Source: Pseudomonas sp. (GTDB lineage Bacteria; Pseudomonadota; Gammaproteobacteria; Pseudomonadales; Pseudomonadaceae). Taken from it: a stretch of DNA of 64,000 nt. This document shows, in pieces, positions 4,711-10,722 of the stretch. The number at the start of each line of letters is the position of its first letter. The stretch's first letter is position 1. The position numbers and the translations under genes were made by a program. The stretch lies in contig JAVXRI010000010.1 of assembly GCA_036643775.1 (NCBI GenBank), positions 4,752 through 68,751 on the forward strand. Reading direction: 5' to 3'. The notes below the pieces were generated by a model that saw nothing but the letters and a program-made list of their open reading frames with translations, did not search any database and was not told the origin of the DNA.

Positions 4711-5034
4711 TTAGCGCTCCAGGTCAGCGATCTTGCCTGGCTTGCCATCCCACTCTTCGGCGTCCGGCAGGGCATCCTTACGCTCGGTGATGTTTGGCCA
4801 GATATCTGCCAGCTCGGCATTGAGCTCGATGAAGTTCTCCATGCCGCTTGGCACTTCGTCTTCCGAGAAAATGGCTTGGGCAGGGCATTCAGGCTCGCAC
4901 AGTGCACAGTCGATGCACTCATCCGGGTGAATGACCAGGAAGTTCGGGCCTTCGTAGAAGCAGTCCACCGGACAGACTTCTACGCAGTCGGTGTACTTGC
5001 ACTTGATGCAGTTGTCGGTGACGACGAAGGTCAT
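4711..5034 (-). CDS. fdxA: Ferredoxin I (7Fe, FdxA)
   Basis: [26 protein letters not shown]...[12 protein letters not shown]; 107 aa. Confidence 0.98.
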
Positions 5035-5174
5035 TTCTAATTCTCTCCTCAGGCGACGGCAGCGATTCCCTTCCAGACAGGGTCGCTCGGTTTGGTCGTT
5101 CGGCTGCAGACCAGGCTAGTAACCTGCAGCACCGCCAAACCGCGCGGGATTCTATCAGCTTGTGCGGGCTCGCG

Positions 5175-7742
5175 TTATAACAGAGTCTTCAGTGTATAGA
5201 GCATTTCGATAGCTTGACGCGGCGTCATGTTGTCCAGGTCGAGCTTCCCGAGCTTCTCGATGGCCGGGTGTGGCAGGCTGGCAAACAGGTCGCTCTGGTG
5301 CGGAACATCGGCTGCACCCTTGGGCACTACAGGCATTTCATGTGGCAGGCTGGCGGTTTCCAGCCGGCCCAGGTGCTCGCGCGCACGCTGGATCACCGGC
5401 GTCGGTACGCCCGCCAGCTGGGCCACGGCCAGGCCATAGCTCTGGCTGGCAGGCCCCGGCAGCACGTGGTGGAGGAAAACGATGCGCTCGTTGTGCTCGG
5501 TGGCGTTCAGGTGCACGTTGGCTACCAATGGCTCGCTTTCCGGCAGCACGGTCAGTTCGAAGTAGTGGGTGGCGAACAGCGTGTAGGCACGCAGTTGCGC
5601 CAGACGCTCCGCTGCGGCCCAGGCCAGCGACAGGCCGTCGAAGGTGCTGGTACCGCGGCCGACTTCGTCCATCAGCACCAGGCTACGGTCGCTGGCGTTG
5701 TGCAGGATGTTGGCGGTTTCGCTCATTTCGACCATGAAGGTCGAGCGCCCACCGGCGAGGTCGTCGCTGGAGCCGATACGGGTGAAGATCCGATCGACCA
5801 GCGACAGCTCGCAACTCGCTGCGGGTACAAAACTGCCGATATGCGCCATCAGCACAATCAGGGCCGTCTGGCGCATGTAGGTGGATTTACCGCCCATGTT
5901 CGGGCCGGTGATCACCAGCATGCGCGTGCTGTCATCCAGCGCCAGGTCGTTGGCCACGAACGGCGTGGTCAGTACCTGTTCGACCACCGGGTGGCGACCC
6001 TGGGTGATACGCATGCACGGCTCGTCGACGAAGGACGGGCAGTTCAGGTCCAGGTTCAGCGCGCGCTCGGCGAGGTTGCTCAACACATCCAGCTCGGCCA
6101 GGGCCGCGGAGGTGTCCTGCAGGGGCGCCAGATGACCGATCAGGGTTTCCAGCAGCGCGTCGTAGAGCATCTTCTCGCGGGCAAGGGCGCGGCTCTTGGC
6201 CGACAGGGCCTTGTCTTCGAAGACTTTCAGTTCCGGGGTGATGAAGCGCTCGGCGCCCTTGAGCGTCTGCCGGCGGATGTAGTCGGCTGGCGCCTGCTCG
6301 GCCTGCTTGCTCGGCAGCTCGATGAAGTAGCCATGCACACGGTTGTAGCCGACCTTGAGGTTGGCCAGGCCGGTGCGGGCTTTTTCCCGGGCTTCGAGGT
6401 CAATAAGGAACTGGCCGGCGTTCTCGCTCATGGACAGCAATTCGTCCAGTTCGCTGTCGTAGCCGGCTTTCAGCACACCGCCGTCACGGATGACCGCGGG
6501 CGGGTTGTCGATGATGGCTTTTTCCAGCAGGTCGGCCAGTTCCGGGTAGGTCCCGGTGATGGCCGCCAGGCGCGCCAGGTGTGGCGCTTCAAGCTCTGCC
6601 ATGGCGTTCTGCAGTTCAGGCAGGGCGCCGAGGGCGTCGCGCAGGCGCGCCAGGTCTCGTGGGCGGGCGTTGCGCAGGCCGATACGGGCGAGAATGCGTT
6701 CGAGGTCGCCGATTTCCTTGAGCTGCGGCTGCAGTTTCTCAAAGCGGTAGCTGTCGAGCAGGCAGCGAATCGAACCCTGACGTGCTTGCAGGACTTTCAG
6801 GTCGCGCAGCGGGCGGTTCAGCCAGCGGGTCAGCAGACGGCTGCCCATGGCGGTCTGGCAACGGTCGATGACCGACTGCAGAGTGTTGTCGCGACCGCCC
6901 GCCAGGTTCACATCCAGCTCGAGGTTGCGGCGGCTTGCGCCATCGAGCACCACGGTGTCGTCCAGGCGTTCATGCTTGAGGCTGCGCAGATGGGGCAGGG
7001 CGGTACGCTGGGTTTCCTTGGCATAGCCCAGCAGGCAGCCGGCGGCGCCGATCGCCAGGGTCAGCTTCTCGCAGCCAAAGCCCTTGAGGTCCTGGGTTGC
7101 GAACTGCTGGCAGAGGCTCTTGCGTGCCGAATCGCGGTCGAAATCCCAGGGTGCACGGCGGCGGGCGCCGCGGCGTTTCTCCGCAGGCAAGCCTTGTGGC
7201 CAGTCATCGGGGATCAACAGCTCGACCGGGTTGATGCGTTCAAGCTCGGCCAGCAGGTTCTCCCAGCCCTTGATCTCGAGCACGGTGAAGTTGCCGCTGG
7301 TGATATCCAGCACGGCCAGGCCGAACAGGCGCTCGTCACCGAGCACGGCGGCGATCAGGTTGTCGCGGCGTTCATCCAGCAACGCCTCGTCACTGACTGT
7401 GCCGGGGGTAATGATGCGCACCACCTGGCGTTCTACCGGGCCCTTGCTGGTGGCCGGGTCGCCGATCTGCTCGCAGATCACCACCGACTCGCCGAGCTTC
7501 ACCAGCTTGGCCAGGTAGCCCTCGGCCGCGTGGAAAGGGATACCACACATGGGAATTGACTGGCCCGCCGATTGCCCGCGGGCAGTCAGGGTGATATCCA
7601 GGAGTTTTGCGGCCTTCTTCGCGTCTTCATAGAAGATTTCGTAGAAGTCGCCCATGCGGTAGAACATCAGTTGATCTGGGTGCTGGTTTTTCAGCTTCCA
7701 GTACTGTTGCATCATCGGGGTGTGTGCGGAGAGATCGCTCAT
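5175..7742 (-). CDS. mutS: DNA mismatch repair protein MutS
   Basis: [19 protein letters not shown], Walker [25 protein letters not shown]; start [11 protein letters not shown] at 7742 (the ORF-track extension to 8159 overlaps the next gene). Confidence 0.98.
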
Positions 7743-7910
7743 TACAGAAACTTGGCTCGCAGTGTCGTTTAGACCAAAGGCAAGCGGGCAATGGTACAGG
7801 GATTTTGCGCGCGATGCCGAGGCCAACAGCCACGGCGCGACCATTTGTCCATGCATTTGCGTGCATATCGGCAATTGCTTTTTGCATAAGCAGGTTGCAT
7901 TATGCGGATT

Positions 7911-8645
7911 ATGCAAAAACGCAACGTAGCATCCGTCTTGAGAGCACTGCTCGACCGTCACGGTATCTCCCCCACGGAGTTGCACCGGCGTACCGGCGTG
8001 CCGCAATCCACCCTGTCGCGCATTCTCAGCGAGAAGATCGTCGATCCTTCTGACAAACATGTGTCGAAGATCGCCGAGTATTTCGGCGTGAGCACCGATC
8101 AATTGCGTGGCCGCGTCGAACTCGGTGAAAGCCGCGAAGCCGCGCCCGGGCGCAGTCACGCCGAGTTGCGCGATATCAGCCTGTGGGATGACGACACCCC
8201 TGTCGAGGATGACGAGGTATCCATTCCGTTTCTTCGTGAGGTCGAGTTGGCAGCAGGATCAGGACGATTCGTCATCGAGGAAAGCGAGAAGGCCAGCCTG
8301 CGCTTCGGCAAGCGCAGCCTGCGCCACAACGGCGTGCAGTTCGACCAGGCCAAGTGCGTCACGGTGCGCGGCAACAGTATGTTGCCGGTGTTGCGCGATG
8401 GCGCCACGGTAGGGGTCAACGCTGGCAAGAGTGGCATCGGCGATATCGTCGACGGTGACCTGTACGCCATCAACCATAACGGCCAGCTGCGGGTGAAGCA
8501 GCTCTATCGTCTGCCTACCGGTATTCGTCTGCGCAGTTTCAACCGTGATGAGCATCCGGATGAAGACTACAGCTTCCAGCAGATGCAGGAGGAGCAGATC
8601 AGCATCCTCGGCCACGTCTTCTGGTGGGGCATGTACGCCCGCTGA
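7911..8645 (+). CDS. prtR: PrtR-like repressor (Cro/CI HTH + S24 autopeptidase)
   Basis: HTH ([18 protein letters not shown]), Ala-Gly cleavage region (ELAAGSG), catalytic Ser (VRGNSM) and Lys (RVKQL); start MQKRNV at 7911. Confidence 0.9.
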
Positions 8646-8663
8646 TCCACACTCAGTCATCAG

Positions 8664-8689
8664 AAAACCCGCTTCGGCGGGTTTTTTTT
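8664..8689 (+). terminator. Intrinsic terminator after the repressor
   Basis: AAAACCCGC-ttcg-GCGGGTTTT plus T-run. Confidence 0.9.
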
Positions 8690-8777
8690 CGCCTCCAGGA
8701 AATTGTTGCAGGCCGCATAGGATAAGGACTACATGCATATGCGCATTTTCTCGTGCATAAATATTTCCACAAATGCA

Positions 8778-8806
8778 TTGACTGCATATGCATCAATGCA
8801 TAATCT
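8778..8806 (+). promoter_or_regulatory. Candidate sigma70 promoter of the tailocin structural/lysis operon
   Basis: TTGACT-17 bp-TAATCT (alternative CATAAT at 15 bp spacing), embedded in a long palindrome. Confidence 0.65.
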
Positions 8807-9013
8807 TTGTCTCAAGCCGGTCATCACCGGTAGCGACAAAGGCAGCGATGAACAGGCCTGAACTGTTCAGAGGGTTGGCAACTGGCCCGGGTGTGCAGCG
8901 TAAAGCACCACAAGCAGTTATCCGGCGGGCAGGTGGCCGCGGTCGGAGGAACAATTTGAAGCGGAGTCGTCCAGCGCACCAGTCGTGGCAGGCGATTCGA
9001 CAACGCATTACTG

Positions 9014-9040
9014 AAAAGCCTGGAAACGCCGGGCTTTTTG
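9014..9040 (+). terminator. Intrinsic terminator in the tailocin leader, upstream of the holin
   Basis: AAAAGCCTGG-aaacg-CCGGGCTTTTT; flanks GCATT/AATGC can extend the stem. Confidence 0.75.
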
Positions 9041-9114
9041 GAATGCCGAGTGGTCGGTTTTAAACACATGCCGCAGGCAAGGTGCCGTGCGGAACAATAA
9101 AAGGAGACAGGACA

Positions 9115-9468
9115 GTGACAAGCGAGCAACAGACGTTACTGGAAATGCCGATCTGGCTGGTGATCGTCCTGGCCTTGCTGGGCGGTCTCTCTGGCGAGAT
9201 GTGGCGTGCGGACAAGGCCGGTGCCCGAGGCTGGGCGCTGTTTCGGCGCCTGCTTTTGCGTTCGGGAGCCTGCATGGTCTGCGGCGTATCCACGGTGATG
9301 CTGCTGTATGCCAGCGGCATGTCGATCTGGACCGCCAGTGCCTTTGGCTGCCTGACGGCGATGGCCGGTGCCGATGTGGCTATCGGGCTTTATGAGCGGT
9401 GGGCCGCACGGCGCTTGGGGGTCGAAACACAGGTCTCGGAGTTTCAACGCCAGGACAACAAGGAGTGA
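9115..9468 (+). CDS. Phage/pyocin-type holin
   Basis: 117 aa with hydrophobic helices (PIWLVIVLALLGGLSGE...AMAGADVAIGLY) and charged C-terminus; AAGGAG RBS, GTG start; first gene of the operon as in R-pyocin clusters. Confidence 0.85.
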   Translation: MTSEQQTLLEMPIWLVIVLALLGGLSGEMWRADKAGARGWALFRRLLLRSGACMVCGVSTVMLLYASGMSIWTASAFGCLTAMAGADVAIGLYERWAARRLGVETQVSEFQRQDNKE

Positions 9469-9522
9469 GCAGATGAAGTGTTAGGATGCTGGATGTCAAA
9501 CACTCTCAGCCAAAGGAATGGC

Positions 9523-10068
9523 ATGTCGTCCGTAATCACTCAAATCAAAGCCCTGCCACCAAAGTCCCAAGTCAAACTCTGTTTGATCCTAGCGGTTTTC
9601 TCCTTGTTGATTGGCGCTTTGTTCCTGCTTGAATGGAGGGATTATCAAGAGCCGAACCCTGAGCGAATCGTGCAGCTTGAAGGCAGGCTGACCAGCGATG
9701 CCCAGGTGTGGAAGCAAGACCGCAGGATTGTCGACTTCGGTGTGGCGCCGCACGGCATGTATGAAGACCGGCAGCCAGTGTATGCCTACAAGGATGTTTA
9801 CCAGAGCACAGGATTGCGCAGGGGGGCAACGGTTGCACTCGAGGTCGAGCACACGGCAGAGGGCGCTCTGGTGCGTAAGCTGAGCACACATGAAGGTCGC
9901 GTGTTGTTCGATGCCAACATGGAGCGCTACATCGCGTCCACCGGCAACGATTCAATAGTGCGCACGTCAGTCCTCACTGTGTTTCTGGTCACGCTGTGCC
10001 TGGGACATGCCTTTTTGACCTGGAGGCGCTACCTCAAAGCACCGGCAGACGTTAATTCAGCGACGTAG
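9523..10068 (+). CDS. Hypothetical 2-TM inner-membrane protein (tailocin cargo)
   Basis: 181 aa, AAGGAA RBS; hydrophobic segments near both termini flanking a ~120-aa hydrophilic domain; not part of the standard R-tail gene set. Confidence 0.7.
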   Translation: MSSVITQIKALPPKSQVKLCLILAVFSLLIGALFLLEWRDYQEPNPERIVQLEGRLTSDAQVWKQDRRIVDFGVAPHGMYEDRQPVYAYKDVYQSTGLRRGATVALEVEHTAEGALVRKLSTHEGRVLFDANMERYIASTGNDSIVRTSVLTVFLVTLCLGHAFLTWRRYLKAPADVNSAT

Positions 10069-10215: not shown

Positions 10216-10722
10216 ATGAACGAACTAACGACCTTGCATGAGGCCATCACCGCGTCCATCAAGGCCGCGATTCCTCAGTTTGAAACTGTAGGCGCTTATG
10301 CGACAGCGGACGAGTCCACAGTTCTCCCAGCGTTGCTCTACGCCATCACCAGCCTTGTGCCCGGAGTTGATCCAGGCGATGGTCGTGCGGGCATCATCGC
10401 AGGCTTTGAGGCCCGCATCCTGGTCGACCCGGCTCGCCCGCAAGCGCCTTTGTTGTCTGTCTCACTGGCGGCCCAACTGACGATACTGCTACGCAAACAG
10501 TTCTGGGCACTGGACTTTGTCGAGGGGGCCTCGGTTGTTCGCGCAATGCCCGCCACAACAGCGTCGACAACGATCTGGTTGGTGCAATGGCAGCAGATGC
10601 TGCGCTTGGGCGCTGCACAATGGCCGTGGCCCGATGAGCCGGGGCCGTTGGCCTTTGCCTTCAGTCCCGACACTGGCCGCGGCAACGAAGATAGTTATCA
10701 GTCTGCGGAGGGCATGACATGA
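10216..10722 (+). CDS. Tail terminator/collar protein (PA0615-like)
   Basis: DPGDGRAG..FEARILV, W.Q.LRLGAAQWPWPDEP, FSPDTGRGNEDSY resemble the R-pyocin collar; AGGAG RBS before ATG 10216. Confidence 0.8.
   Translation: MNELTTLHEAITASIKAAIPQFETVGAYATADESTVLPALLYAITSLVPGVDPGDGRAGIIAGFEARILVDPARPQAPLLSVSLAAQLTILLRKQFWALDFVEGASVVRAMPATTASTTIWLVQWQQMLRLGAAQWPWPDEPGPLAFAFSPDTGRGNEDSYQSAEGMT

What the first reader, a model, noticed from the sequence alone, without database searches (positions are those of the whole stretch)
9523..10068. Orphan two-TM membrane protein inserted between holin and collar gene
Seen: a 181-aa ORF with its own RBS. A basic N-terminus, TM1 (LCLILAVFSLLIGALFLL), a ~120-aa beta-rich-looking hydrophilic domain, TM2 (SVLTVFLVTLCLGHAFLTW) and basic RRYLK predict an N-in/C-in topology with a periplasmic domain. 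It is not a standard R-tail gene, and its start looks more AT-rich than the neighbours. Established: tailocin clusters pick up cargo near the lysis cassette. Inference: a self-protection/exclusion factor against tail puncture, a holin-timing modulator, or an orphan immunity gene.
Basis: partly seen in the sequence, partly recalled or inferred. Interest (0 to 1): 0.7.

Follow-up and report, generated by a model that had tools for sequence, protein, structure and literature searches.

The report
Orphan partner gene of membrane cassette
The small membrane-protein gene between the holin and collar genes of this Pseudomonas tailocin cluster is real, and it is the lone, still-selected survivor of an undescribed three-gene cassette, best read as the protective (immunity-like) partner of a lost membrane protein.

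Summary
The ORF at 9523-10068 is a real 181-aa gene. It has its own Shine-Dalgarno sequence. Two transmembrane helices flank a confidently predicted periplasmic OB-type beta-barrel (pLDDT 89). It lies between a Phage_holin_3_5 holin and a homologue of the R2-pyocin collar PA0615.

It has no Pfam, PHROG, NCBIfam or PADLOC family. Sensitive searches find about 24 clusters of same-sized relatives, and all the named ones are Pseudomonas.

In other genomes the gene ("X") is one of three genes in a low-GC cassette. The other two are a 2OG-Fe(II) oxygenase and a roughly 275-aa glycine-zipper membrane protein ("Y"). The cassette sits beside tailocin holins or in chromosomal hot spots.

The window carries a deletion scar where the oxygenase and Y genes used to be, and its genome has no Y. 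Up to 11 loci have lost or broken Y while X stays intact. Y was never found without an X-like neighbour (23 of 23 genomes). Orphan X is under purifying selection (dN/dS 0.20).

The best reading is an orphan immunity- or antidote-type partner of Y (confidence about 0.4). Holin timing and protection from tail puncture are poorly supported. Toxicity of Y, its delivery route and expression of X are all untested.

The parts
9115..9468 (+). Tailocin holin (GTG start). It is the upstream neighbour and the probable operon partner.
   Evidence: PF16085 Phage_holin_3_5, E 5.7e-55; phrog_3897, E 4e-58.
9473..9510 (+). Deletion scar. A relic start codon of the lost 2OG-Fe(II) oxygenase (ATG AAG TGT TAG, 9473-9484) is joined to a remnant of the Y-X intergenic spacer (GTGTTAGG...). 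These 34 nt (9477-9510) replace 1468 nt holding the oxygenase and Y genes in locus L002.
   Evidence: blastn breakpoints are window 9476|9511 = L002 4520|5989 = L006 139|1622. The sequences were read directly. L003 has the same junction.
9513..9517 (+). Shine-Dalgarno AAGGA, 5 nt before the ATG at 9523.
   Evidence: Sequence. The same CAAAGGA(A/G)TG context stands before X in L002 and L006.
9523..10068 (+). Gene X: a 181-aa inner-membrane protein with TM - periplasmic OB-like barrel - TM architecture. It is the orphan member of the oxygenase-Y-X cassette.
9559..9627 (+). TM1 (residues 13-35).
   Evidence: AlphaFold2 helix 13-35; hydrophobic stretch LCLILAVFSLLIGALFLL.
9667..9909 (+). Periplasmic OB-type beta-barrel (residues 49-129). 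It holds the most conserved motifs of the family: W63..D66, VYAYK, VR.L.T..G.VLFD.
   Evidence: Model. Foldseek gives only weak OB-fold matches to SSB, cold-shock and LEF-3 proteins, with E 8e-4 or weaker. Conservation.
9913..10038 (+). Stalk helix plus TM2 (residues 131-172), followed by the basic cytoplasmic tail WRRYLK.
10216..10722 (+). Collar protein (PA0615 homologue), the first tail gene and the downstream neighbour.
   Evidence: PDB 6u5f 'Collar PA0615', E 3.7e-23; phrog_1072, E 4e-45.
7902..8645 (+). PrtR/PtbA-like HTH-S24 repressor of the cluster. It is context for SOS-type control of the operon that contains X.
   Evidence: PF00717, E 1.4e-18, and PF01381, E 1e-10.

Best explanation
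X is an inner-membrane protein. Both termini lie in the cytoplasm and an OB-type beta-barrel lies in the periplasm.

It belongs to a Pseudomonas-restricted three-gene cassette. The other two genes encode a cytoplasmic 2OG-Fe(II) oxygenase ('Oxy') and a roughly 275-aa membrane protein with an invariant glycine-zipper helix ('Y').

I infer that Y is costly or toxic to membranes, and that X is its cognate protective partner of the immunity or antidote type. X would act either within the membrane or through its periplasmic barrel. Oxy probably modifies a protein or peptide substrate, possibly Y.

In this window Oxy and Y have been cleanly deleted. X remains as an orphan that selection still maintains. 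It is probably transcribed with the holin and tail genes from the repressor-controlled tailocin promoter. It would then protect the cell against Y-type proteins made by related strains.

Shown: the anatomy, the cassette, the deletion scar, the asymmetric decay and the purifying selection. Inferred: toxicity of Y, protection by X, the role of Oxy and co-transcription.
For: (1) Cassette. In 401 species of the genus, X-family genes occur in 19 genomes (one hit is only a fragment) and Y-family genes in 23. Y always has an Oxy gene and a 160-212 aa protein with N- and C-terminal TM helices beside it. The gene order is Oxy-Y-X or X'-Oxy-Y. X' is a remote homologue of X (hhalign probability 92.7%, E 4e-7).

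(2) Asymmetry. Y was never found without an X-like gene (23 of 23 genomes). X is intact while Y is missing or broken in the window/L003, L029, L031, L039, L044, L045, L042 (Oxy1-110::Y145-266 fusion), L043 (Oxy1-23::Y68-267), L035 and L036 (frameshifts) and L047 (truncated). Remnants of the Y C-terminus lie upstream of X in L031 (E 2e-5) and L029 (E 0.002). Nine of the 18 genomes with a full-length type-A X have no intact Y.

(3) Deletion scar in the window, shared with L003. The window's genome has no Y and no X'.

(4) Selection on the orphan. Window versus L003, which share the deletion, gives dN 0.048, dS 0.235 and dN/dS 0.20, like the neighbouring tail genes at 0.05-0.21. The orphan pair L031-L044 gives 0.25.

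(5) Rates. Mean pairwise identity is Oxy 0.61 > Y 0.49 > X 0.35, and the three proteins co-diverge (Spearman 0.80-0.88). Extra X copies in one genome are only 22-28% identical to each other. L046 has a tandem X-X pair and L049 has X on both sides of Y. This resembles immunity-gene repertoires.

(6) Y has an invariant S-L-x-G-N-x-x-G core within a GxxxGxxxG hydrophobic helix.

(7) The edges of tailocin clusters beside the repressor and holin genes are documented cargo sites. Known cargo there includes bacteriocins such as LlpA and colicin M-like proteins (PMC4684702).

(8) No separate promoter or terminator was found around X.
Against: Y has no recognisable toxin, receptor-binding, translocation or secretion domain, and no signal peptide. 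It matches nothing in Pfam, NCBIfam, PHROGs, PADLOC or the PDB. Its structure could not be predicted (pLDDT 33).

No T6SS, CDI or lysis genes flank the chromosomal cassettes; the flanks are housekeeping genes. No LexA-type boxes lie upstream of them. A delivery route for an interbacterial toxin is therefore missing except where the cassette sits beside a tailocin lysis cassette.

If Y is a self-acting toxin, the asymmetric loss follows from the order of loss alone. X cannot be lost first, so the asymmetry does not prove immunity against foreign Y.

The purifying selection on the orphan rests mainly on one closely related pair. Expression of X is untested because no RNA data exist. One fragmentary X-like hit (L048) shows that X can also decay.
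Confidence: 0.4

Rival explanations
1. The cassette is an anti-phage defence or abortive-infection system. X would be the envelope-facing sensor or anchor, Y the membrane-disrupting effector and Oxy a modifier. The window's X would then be a leftover part with a reduced or different role.
For: The cassette forms a patchy (about 5% of species), low-GC3, fast-evolving three-gene island in hot spots that include a phage-derived element. It has a membrane effector-like protein. X evolves fastest, as phage-facing sensors do. Oxy has full-length phage homologues (phrog_274, E 1e-25).
Against: X and Y match no PADLOC model. Oxy matches only generic '2OG, Cas-associated' models. The islands are not in recognisable defence islands; their flanks are housekeeping genes. 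A lone sensor should decay, yet orphan X is under purifying selection and is repeatedly the only gene kept. X and Y are absent from 50,697 phage records, and Y is absent from 72,556 plasmid records (X was not searched there).
Confidence: 0.2
2. X acts in tailocin biology. It could be an antiholin or lysis-timing modulator, or a guard of the producer's inner membrane against tail puncture or superinfection.
For: X sits immediately after the holin in the window, L002, L003, L039, L041 and L047, and between holin and endolysin-Rz/Rz1 in L006. It is a two-TM membrane protein, probably co-transcribed with the holin. Some phage antiholins and exclusion proteins are small inner-membrane proteins (own knowledge).
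Against: Most family members (about 25 of about 33 loci) lie far from any holin, endolysin or tail gene. The partners conserved across the family are Oxy and Y, not the holin. About 95% of species in the genus lack the gene, and the canonical R2 pyocin has the collar gene directly after the holin gene (own knowledge). PHROG lysis families do not match X.
Confidence: 0.1
3. The cassette is a non-conflict accessory envelope module, such as a hydroxylase-dependent membrane complex for stress, metal or surface modification. On this reading X has a useful function of its own, which is why it survives alone.
For: X keeps purifying selection without its partners. OB folds in the periplasm often bind metals or oligosaccharides (own knowledge). 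There are weak sub-threshold hits to CusF and to DUF4131 of ComEC. No delivery route for Y was found.
Against: It gives no reason for Y to be repeatedly and specifically inactivated. It does not explain divergent X copies piling up in one genome, or Y never occurring without X. Distribution is very patchy and the sequences evolve fast.
Confidence: 0.2
4. X in this window is a functionless remnant that has not yet decayed.
For: Its two partners are deleted and absent from the genome. No expression data exist.
Against: The ORF, its Shine-Dalgarno sequence and its start codon are intact. dN/dS is 0.20 over dS 0.235 since the shared deletion. Under neutrality about three quarters of substitutions would be non-synonymous, whereas the observed share is under half (my estimate). 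Intact orphans recur in at least seven other loci.
Confidence: 0.07

Closest known systems
Orphan immunity genes of bacteriocin, pyocin, T6SS and CDI toxin-immunity systems
   Same: The gene lies beside a conserved partner gene. It is often retained alone after loss of the partner. Divergent extra copies and tandem arrays occur. It evolves fast, locates to the inner membrane and periplasm, and occurs as cargo in tailocin clusters, where bacteriocin genes are known cargo (PMC4684702).
   Different: The presumed toxin Y has no known toxin, receptor-binding, translocation or secretion-marker domain. A 2OG-Fe(II) oxygenase is an obligatory third gene. Toxicity and protection are untested.
DUF3592 (PF12158) membrane proteins
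   Same: They share the architecture TM helix - small beta-barrel - TM helix and a size of about 150-240 aa. UniRef labels two family members 'DUF3592 domain-containing'. Foldseek lists a DUF3592 giant-virus protein among its weak matches.
   Different: None of 26 family members reaches E <= 1 against PF12158. DUF3592 itself has no known function; it has only been noted next to LXG toxins (PMC12482557).
ComEC N-terminal DUF4131 (OB fold between TM helices)
   Same: An OB-like barrel lies between membrane helices. There are sub-threshold hits in 5 of 26 members (best E 0.0018).
   Different: Scores are far below the gathering threshold (12.9 versus 31.6 bits for X). There is no competence context. 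X is a stand-alone 181-aa protein.
Inner-membrane immunity proteins of colicin M-like bacteriocins (Cmi; Pseudomonas PmiA, PMC5277000)
   Same: They are membrane-anchored immunity proteins that act at the periplasmic face. Colicin M-like genes also ride as tailocin cargo.
   Different: No sequence relationship was found, and the partner Y is not colicin M-like. The folds were not compared directly.
Phage antiholins and lysis regulators, and superinfection-exclusion membrane proteins (P2 LysA, T4 RI/Imm/Sp, HK97 gp15)
   Same: They are small inner-membrane proteins encoded next to lysis genes.
   Different: The X family is mostly not next to lysis genes. It has no homology to PHROG lysis families and is absent from the phage records searched.

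Membership tests
DUF3592 (PF12158) | Match to the Pfam model at or above its threshold | tested here: not met
   hmmscan of all 26 members of A2 at E <= 1 gave no PF12158 hit.
DUF3592 (PF12158) | TM - beta-barrel - TM architecture | tested here: met
   AlphaFold2 model with pLDDT 89; weak Foldseek match to a DUF3592 protein.
DUF4131 (PF13567, ComEC N-terminus) | Match at or above the gathering score (31.6 bits) | tested here: not met
   12.9 bits, E 0.093 for X; best of 26 members E 0.0018.
Immunity protein of a toxin-immunity pair | Conserved adjacency to one partner gene, with co-divergence | tested here: met
   Y was adjacent to X or X' in 23 of 23 Y-bearing genomes. Spearman correlation of Y and X identities is 0.81 within type A.
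Immunity protein of a toxin-immunity pair | The toxin gene never occurs without immunity, while immunity often occurs without the toxin (orphans) | tested here: met
   No Y lacked an X-like gene (0 of 23). Nine of the 18 genomes with a full-length type-A X lack an intact Y. Up to 11 loci have an intact X with Y lost or broken.
Immunity protein of a toxin-immunity pair | Orphan copies are kept by purifying selection | tested here: met
   dN/dS 0.20 for window versus L003 after the shared deletion, and 0.25 for L031 versus L044.
Immunity protein of a toxin-immunity pair | The partner is toxic and is neutralised specifically by the cognate immunity protein | not testable with these tools
   This needs expression and competition assays. 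Y matches no known toxin family.
Immunity protein of a toxin-immunity pair | A delivery route for the toxin (secretion system, lysis cassette, or receptor and translocation domains) | tested here: inconclusive
   A holin/endolysin cassette is adjacent in only about 8 loci. The chromosomal islands have housekeeping flanks, no T6SS or CDI genes and no LexA box.
Holin / antiholin / lysis regulator | Conserved linkage to lysis genes across the family, or homology to known lysis families | tested here: not met
   Most loci have no lysis genes. X has no PHROG or Pfam lysis hit.
Core R-type tailocin gene set | Present in orthologous clusters; homologue of a P2 or R2 pyocin structural or lysis protein | tested here: not met
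   Absent from 36 of 36, and then 382 of 401, species of the genus. No PDB or PHROG match.
Known anti-phage defence systems (PADLOC-DB v2) | Match of X or Y to a defence-system model | tested here: not met
   No hit for X or Y. Oxy matches only a generic '2OG' Cas-associated model.

The most novel reading that the evidence does not exclude
Oxy-Y-X is a previously undescribed, Pseudomonas-specific three-component conflict system. A 2OG-Fe(II) oxygenase would post-translationally mature a glycine-zipper membrane toxin (Y). A new TM-OB-TM protein family (X) would provide specific immunity. Strains would collect orphan X genes, here wired into the SOS-controlled tailocin operon, as a defence repertoire against neighbours' Y toxins.
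Probability: 0.3. Interest if true: 0.75.

Novelty: new variant of a known kind. Interest (0 to 1): 0.55.

Why it matters
Tailocin clusters are being developed as precision antibacterials, and their cargo genes are mostly unexplained. This gene turns out to be a handle on an uncharacterised three-gene cassette made of two protein families with no database model and an oxygenase. The cassette's evolutionary behaviour resembles that of toxin-immunity modules: obligatory linkage, one-sided decay, orphan retention and copy accumulation.

If confirmed, it would add a new membrane-toxin/immunity pair that depends on an enzyme, and a first function for a TM-OB-TM architecture shared with the uncharacterised DUF3592 family. 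It would also give an example of immunity genes being placed under tailocin (SOS) control. If instead the cassette is a phage-defence system, it would be a new one. Either way the hypothesis can be tested directly with simple expression and competition assays.

Tried and rejected
- **Family libraries for X.** Pfam, PHROGs, NCBIfam and PADLOC gave nothing significant.
- **PDB sequence search.** A search with the family profile gave nothing.
- **Foldseek on the good X model.** PDB and BFVD gave only generic OB-fold matches (E 8e-4 or weaker, TM-scores 0.2-0.3 on the query), so no specific relative emerged.
- **The search for related loci with the family alignment.** It failed because no stretch was conserved enough. 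Whole-genome HMM searches replaced it.
- **Structure of Y.** pLDDT 33, unusable, so no fold search was run on it.
- **Y against Pfam, NCBIfam, PHROGs, PADLOC and the PDB.** Nothing.
- **Integrase idea.** The 386-448 aa genes next to several islands are Old-Yellow-Enzyme-type flavin oxidoreductases. That means a shared chromosomal hot spot, not a mobile-element integrase.
- **T6SS or secretion neighbours.** None found.
- **LexA boxes upstream of the islands.** None convincing.
- **Phage and plasmid collections.** No X or Y in phages and no Y in plasmids.
- **RNA-seq evidence.** No RNA runs hold the sequence.
- **Two long repeat proteins in the phmmer list (P0012, P0028).** Rejected as spurious low-complexity or repeat matches.
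- **Literature.** No paper describes the cassette. DUF3592 is mentioned only as a protein of unknown function.
- **Earlier notes of this scan.** None on this sequence.

Full report
**1.

The + strand carries an ORF from 9478 (GTG) or 9523 (ATG) to 10068. AAGGA stands 5 nt before the ATG at 9523, and all close homologues begin with the same residues, MSSV/MPSV. The product is therefore 181 aa.

AlphaFold2 with a 26-sequence family alignment gives a confident model, with mean pLDDT 89.2 and pTM 0.74. The model has a short N-terminal helix, TM1 (13-35), a six-stranded barrel with one helix after strand 3 (49-129, OB-like) and a long helix (131-172) whose C-terminal half is TM2.

The gene upstream is a holin (PF16085, E 6e-55). 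The gene downstream is a homologue of the R2-pyocin collar PA0615 (PDB 6u5f, E 4e-23). The locus is the mutS-side end of a Pseudomonas R-type tailocin cluster with an HTH-S24 repressor. The dip in GC at the start of the gene is real (0.50-0.52 against 0.60-0.65; gene GC 0.556 against 0.61-0.63).

**2. There is no database family, but there is a real family.**

X matches nothing in Pfam, PHROGs, NCBIfam or PADLOC. The word-indexed search of 5.8 billion proteins finds only four clusters. None of 36 species of the same genus has it.

An exhaustive phmmer search of 1.84 billion representatives finds about 24 clusters of 168-190 aa proteins at 22-39% identity with the same two-TM layout. Every member that carries a name is a Pseudomonas 'hypothetical protein', mostly from the putida group.

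A family HMM finds X in 19 of 401 species of the genus. Two members are labelled DUF3592 by UniRef, but none of the 26 matches PF12158. Foldseek gives only generic OB-fold matches. The family profile has no PDB sequence relative.

**3. Context is the key result: X belongs to a three-gene cassette.**

Close homologues show two states. In L003 the order is holin-X-collar, as in the window. In L002 (X 96% identical) the order is holin-Oxy-Y-X-collar. Oxy is a 192-aa 2OG-Fe(II) oxygenase (PF13640) and Y is a 275-aa protein with no family. A 61% homologue lies in holin-Oxy-Y-X-GH19 endolysin-Rz/Rz1.

I fetched the neighbourhoods of all genus hits and mapped the genes. Oxy-Y-X forms a low-GC3 unit (0.4-0.6, against 0.8-0.9 in the flanks) in many chromosomal sites. 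These include a hot spot next to an Old-Yellow-Enzyme gene and others next to bipA or pta.

Y-family genes occur in 23 of 401 species. Every one has an Oxy gene and a 160-212 aa protein with N- and C-terminal TM helices beside it. In a second subtype the order is X'-Oxy-Y. X' is a remote homologue of X by profile-profile comparison (probability 92.7%, E 4e-7 over 140 columns).

The three proteins co-diverge (Spearman 0.80-0.88). Oxy is the most conserved and X the least, with mean identities of 0.61, 0.49 and 0.35.

**4. The window's copy is a deletion survivor.**

Homology between the window and L002 breaks at window 9476|9511, which corresponds to L002 4520|5989. The same breakpoints appear against L006. 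Read directly, the window keeps the Oxy start codon a few bases after the holin stop (ATG AAG TGT TAG, 9473-9484). That codon is fused to a piece of the Y-X spacer (GTGTTAGG). L003 has the same junction. So 34 nt replace the 1468 nt that hold Oxy and Y. The window's genome has no Y and no X' elsewhere.

**5. Decay is one-sided.**

X is an intact ORF in all loci with a full-length family hit. Y or Oxy-Y is missing or broken in many of them:
- L031: only the last 27 codons of Y remain (E 2e-5).
- L029: only the last 12 codons of Y remain (E 0.002).
- L042: an Oxy(1-110)::Y(145-266) fusion.
- L043: an Oxy(1-23)::Y(68-267) fusion.
- L035 and L036: frameshifts in Y.
- L047: a truncated Y.
- L039, L044 and L045: no trace of Y.

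Nine of the 18 genomes with a full-length type-A X have no intact Y. No genome has Y without an X-like gene.

If inactivating hits fell at random by target size, X would take about 28% of them. Eleven hits in a row outside X would then have a probability of about 0.03. This is a rough estimate of mine, and the events may not all be independent.

Genomes also hold extra, very divergent X copies (22-28% identity). L046 has a tandem pair and L049 has X on both sides of Y.

**6. The orphan is still selected.**

The window and L003 share the deletion, so their differences arose after it. Those differences give dN 0.048, dS 0.235 and dN/dS 0.20, within the range of the neighbouring holin, collar, spike and baseplate genes (0.05-0.21). 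Other pairs give 0.11-0.31, and one pair of closely related sequences gives 0.47. The orphan pair L031-L044 gives 0.25.

**7. What the partners look like.**

Oxy keeps the HxD...H...R iron and 2-oxoglutarate motif (sequence). It is nearest to P4H-like hydroxylases (PDB 9blq, 9ei6; weak). It also matches NCBIfam models for 'FlmC family' and for the peptide-modifying YhhC oxygenase, both below cut-off. It has full-length phage homologues (phrog_274).

Y has a roughly 50-aa N-terminal region followed by hydrophobic helices. These contain an invariant S-L-x-G-N-x-x-G core within a GxxxGxxxG stretch. The C-terminal part is variable and Pro/Gly-rich, and ends in a conserved QD.Y.CC...D.Y motif. Y has no signal peptide and no family, PDB relative or usable model.

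**8. Interpretation.**

Four features are the usual signature of a costly or toxic protein and its protective partner: obligatory Y-X linkage, repeated loss of Y with retention of X, purifying selection on orphans, and accumulation of divergent X copies. Tailocin cluster edges next to the repressor and holin genes are known cargo sites that carry bacteriocins (PMC4684702).

I therefore read X as an immunity- or antidote-type inner-membrane partner of Y. Here it is orphaned, and it is probably co-transcribed with the tailocin operon, since no promoter or terminator of its own was found. My confidence is about 0.4.

The main weakness is that nothing marks Y as a toxin, and no delivery route is visible outside tailocin clusters. 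A phage-defence reading (0.2) and a non-conflict envelope role (0.2) remain open.

The holin-timing and anti-puncture ideas (0.1) are disfavoured because most family members are nowhere near lysis or tail genes. A dead remnant (0.07) is unlikely given the selection signal.

**9. Limits.**

There are no expression data, no literature on the cassette and no multimer modelling. The counts of events come from one representative genome per species.

Noticed in passing
L047 (G135:C3:272500-286500), about 4769-8659: A mutS-cinA locus with repressor, holin and a decayed cassette (Oxy-X-truncated Y), followed directly by cinA-recA. No tail genes are present. It looks like a tailocin-less relic that kept the holin and the cargo.
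   Followed up: partly
L006 1-3339: The holin 3' end, Oxy, Y, X, a GH19 endolysin and Rz with an embedded Rz1-like ORF (lipobox LLICAC) are contiguous, with no tail genes between holin and endolysin. The cassette here sits inside a complete lysis cassette.
   Followed up: partly
L042 (G163), 6805-9040: Here the cassette remnant (an Oxy::Y fusion plus an intact X) lies at the distal end of a tailocin, right after the gpD-like hub gene (PF05954) and near cinA. Both ends of tailocin clusters therefore receive this cargo.
   Followed up: partly
L050 658-3480, L056 7391-10276, L059 595-3480, L049 1156-3936: A 926-961 aa low-GC3 protein with two TM segments near residues 710-795 and no Pfam domain lies next to several type-B cassettes. 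It may be further island cargo of unknown function.
   Followed up: no
L002 4517-5095 (Oxy): The oxygenase matches phrog_274 over its full length (E 1e-25). That PHROG is annotated 'DNA endonuclease V', which looks like a misleading label for a family of phage 2OG-Fe(II) oxygenases.
   Followed up: no
L040 (G192:C43): The Y protein of this contig (length 80,994) appears in NCBI under 'Pantoea sp. Ap-967' (P0118), although the genome falls in the same GTDB genus as the window. The organism label is probably wrong.
   Followed up: no
window 8848-9063: The 71-aa ORF between the repressor and the holin has no Pfam, PHROG or NCBIfam match. No PrtN-like activator was recognised, in line with the report that ptbA-type clusters lack prtN (PMC4684702).
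   Followed up: no
L002/L003 about 11819 onward: A second Baseplate_J gene (40% identical to the first) follows the first fibre and chaperone set. These relatives therefore carry a tandem second tailocin module that the window lacks at the corresponding place.
   Followed up: no
L048 (G376:C33) 6881-7255: A 37-residue X-like fragment (E 2.6e-7) lies next to a GH19-like lysozyme gene. It is either a decayed X or an unrelated protein that shares the VR.L.T..G.VLFD motif.
   Followed up: no
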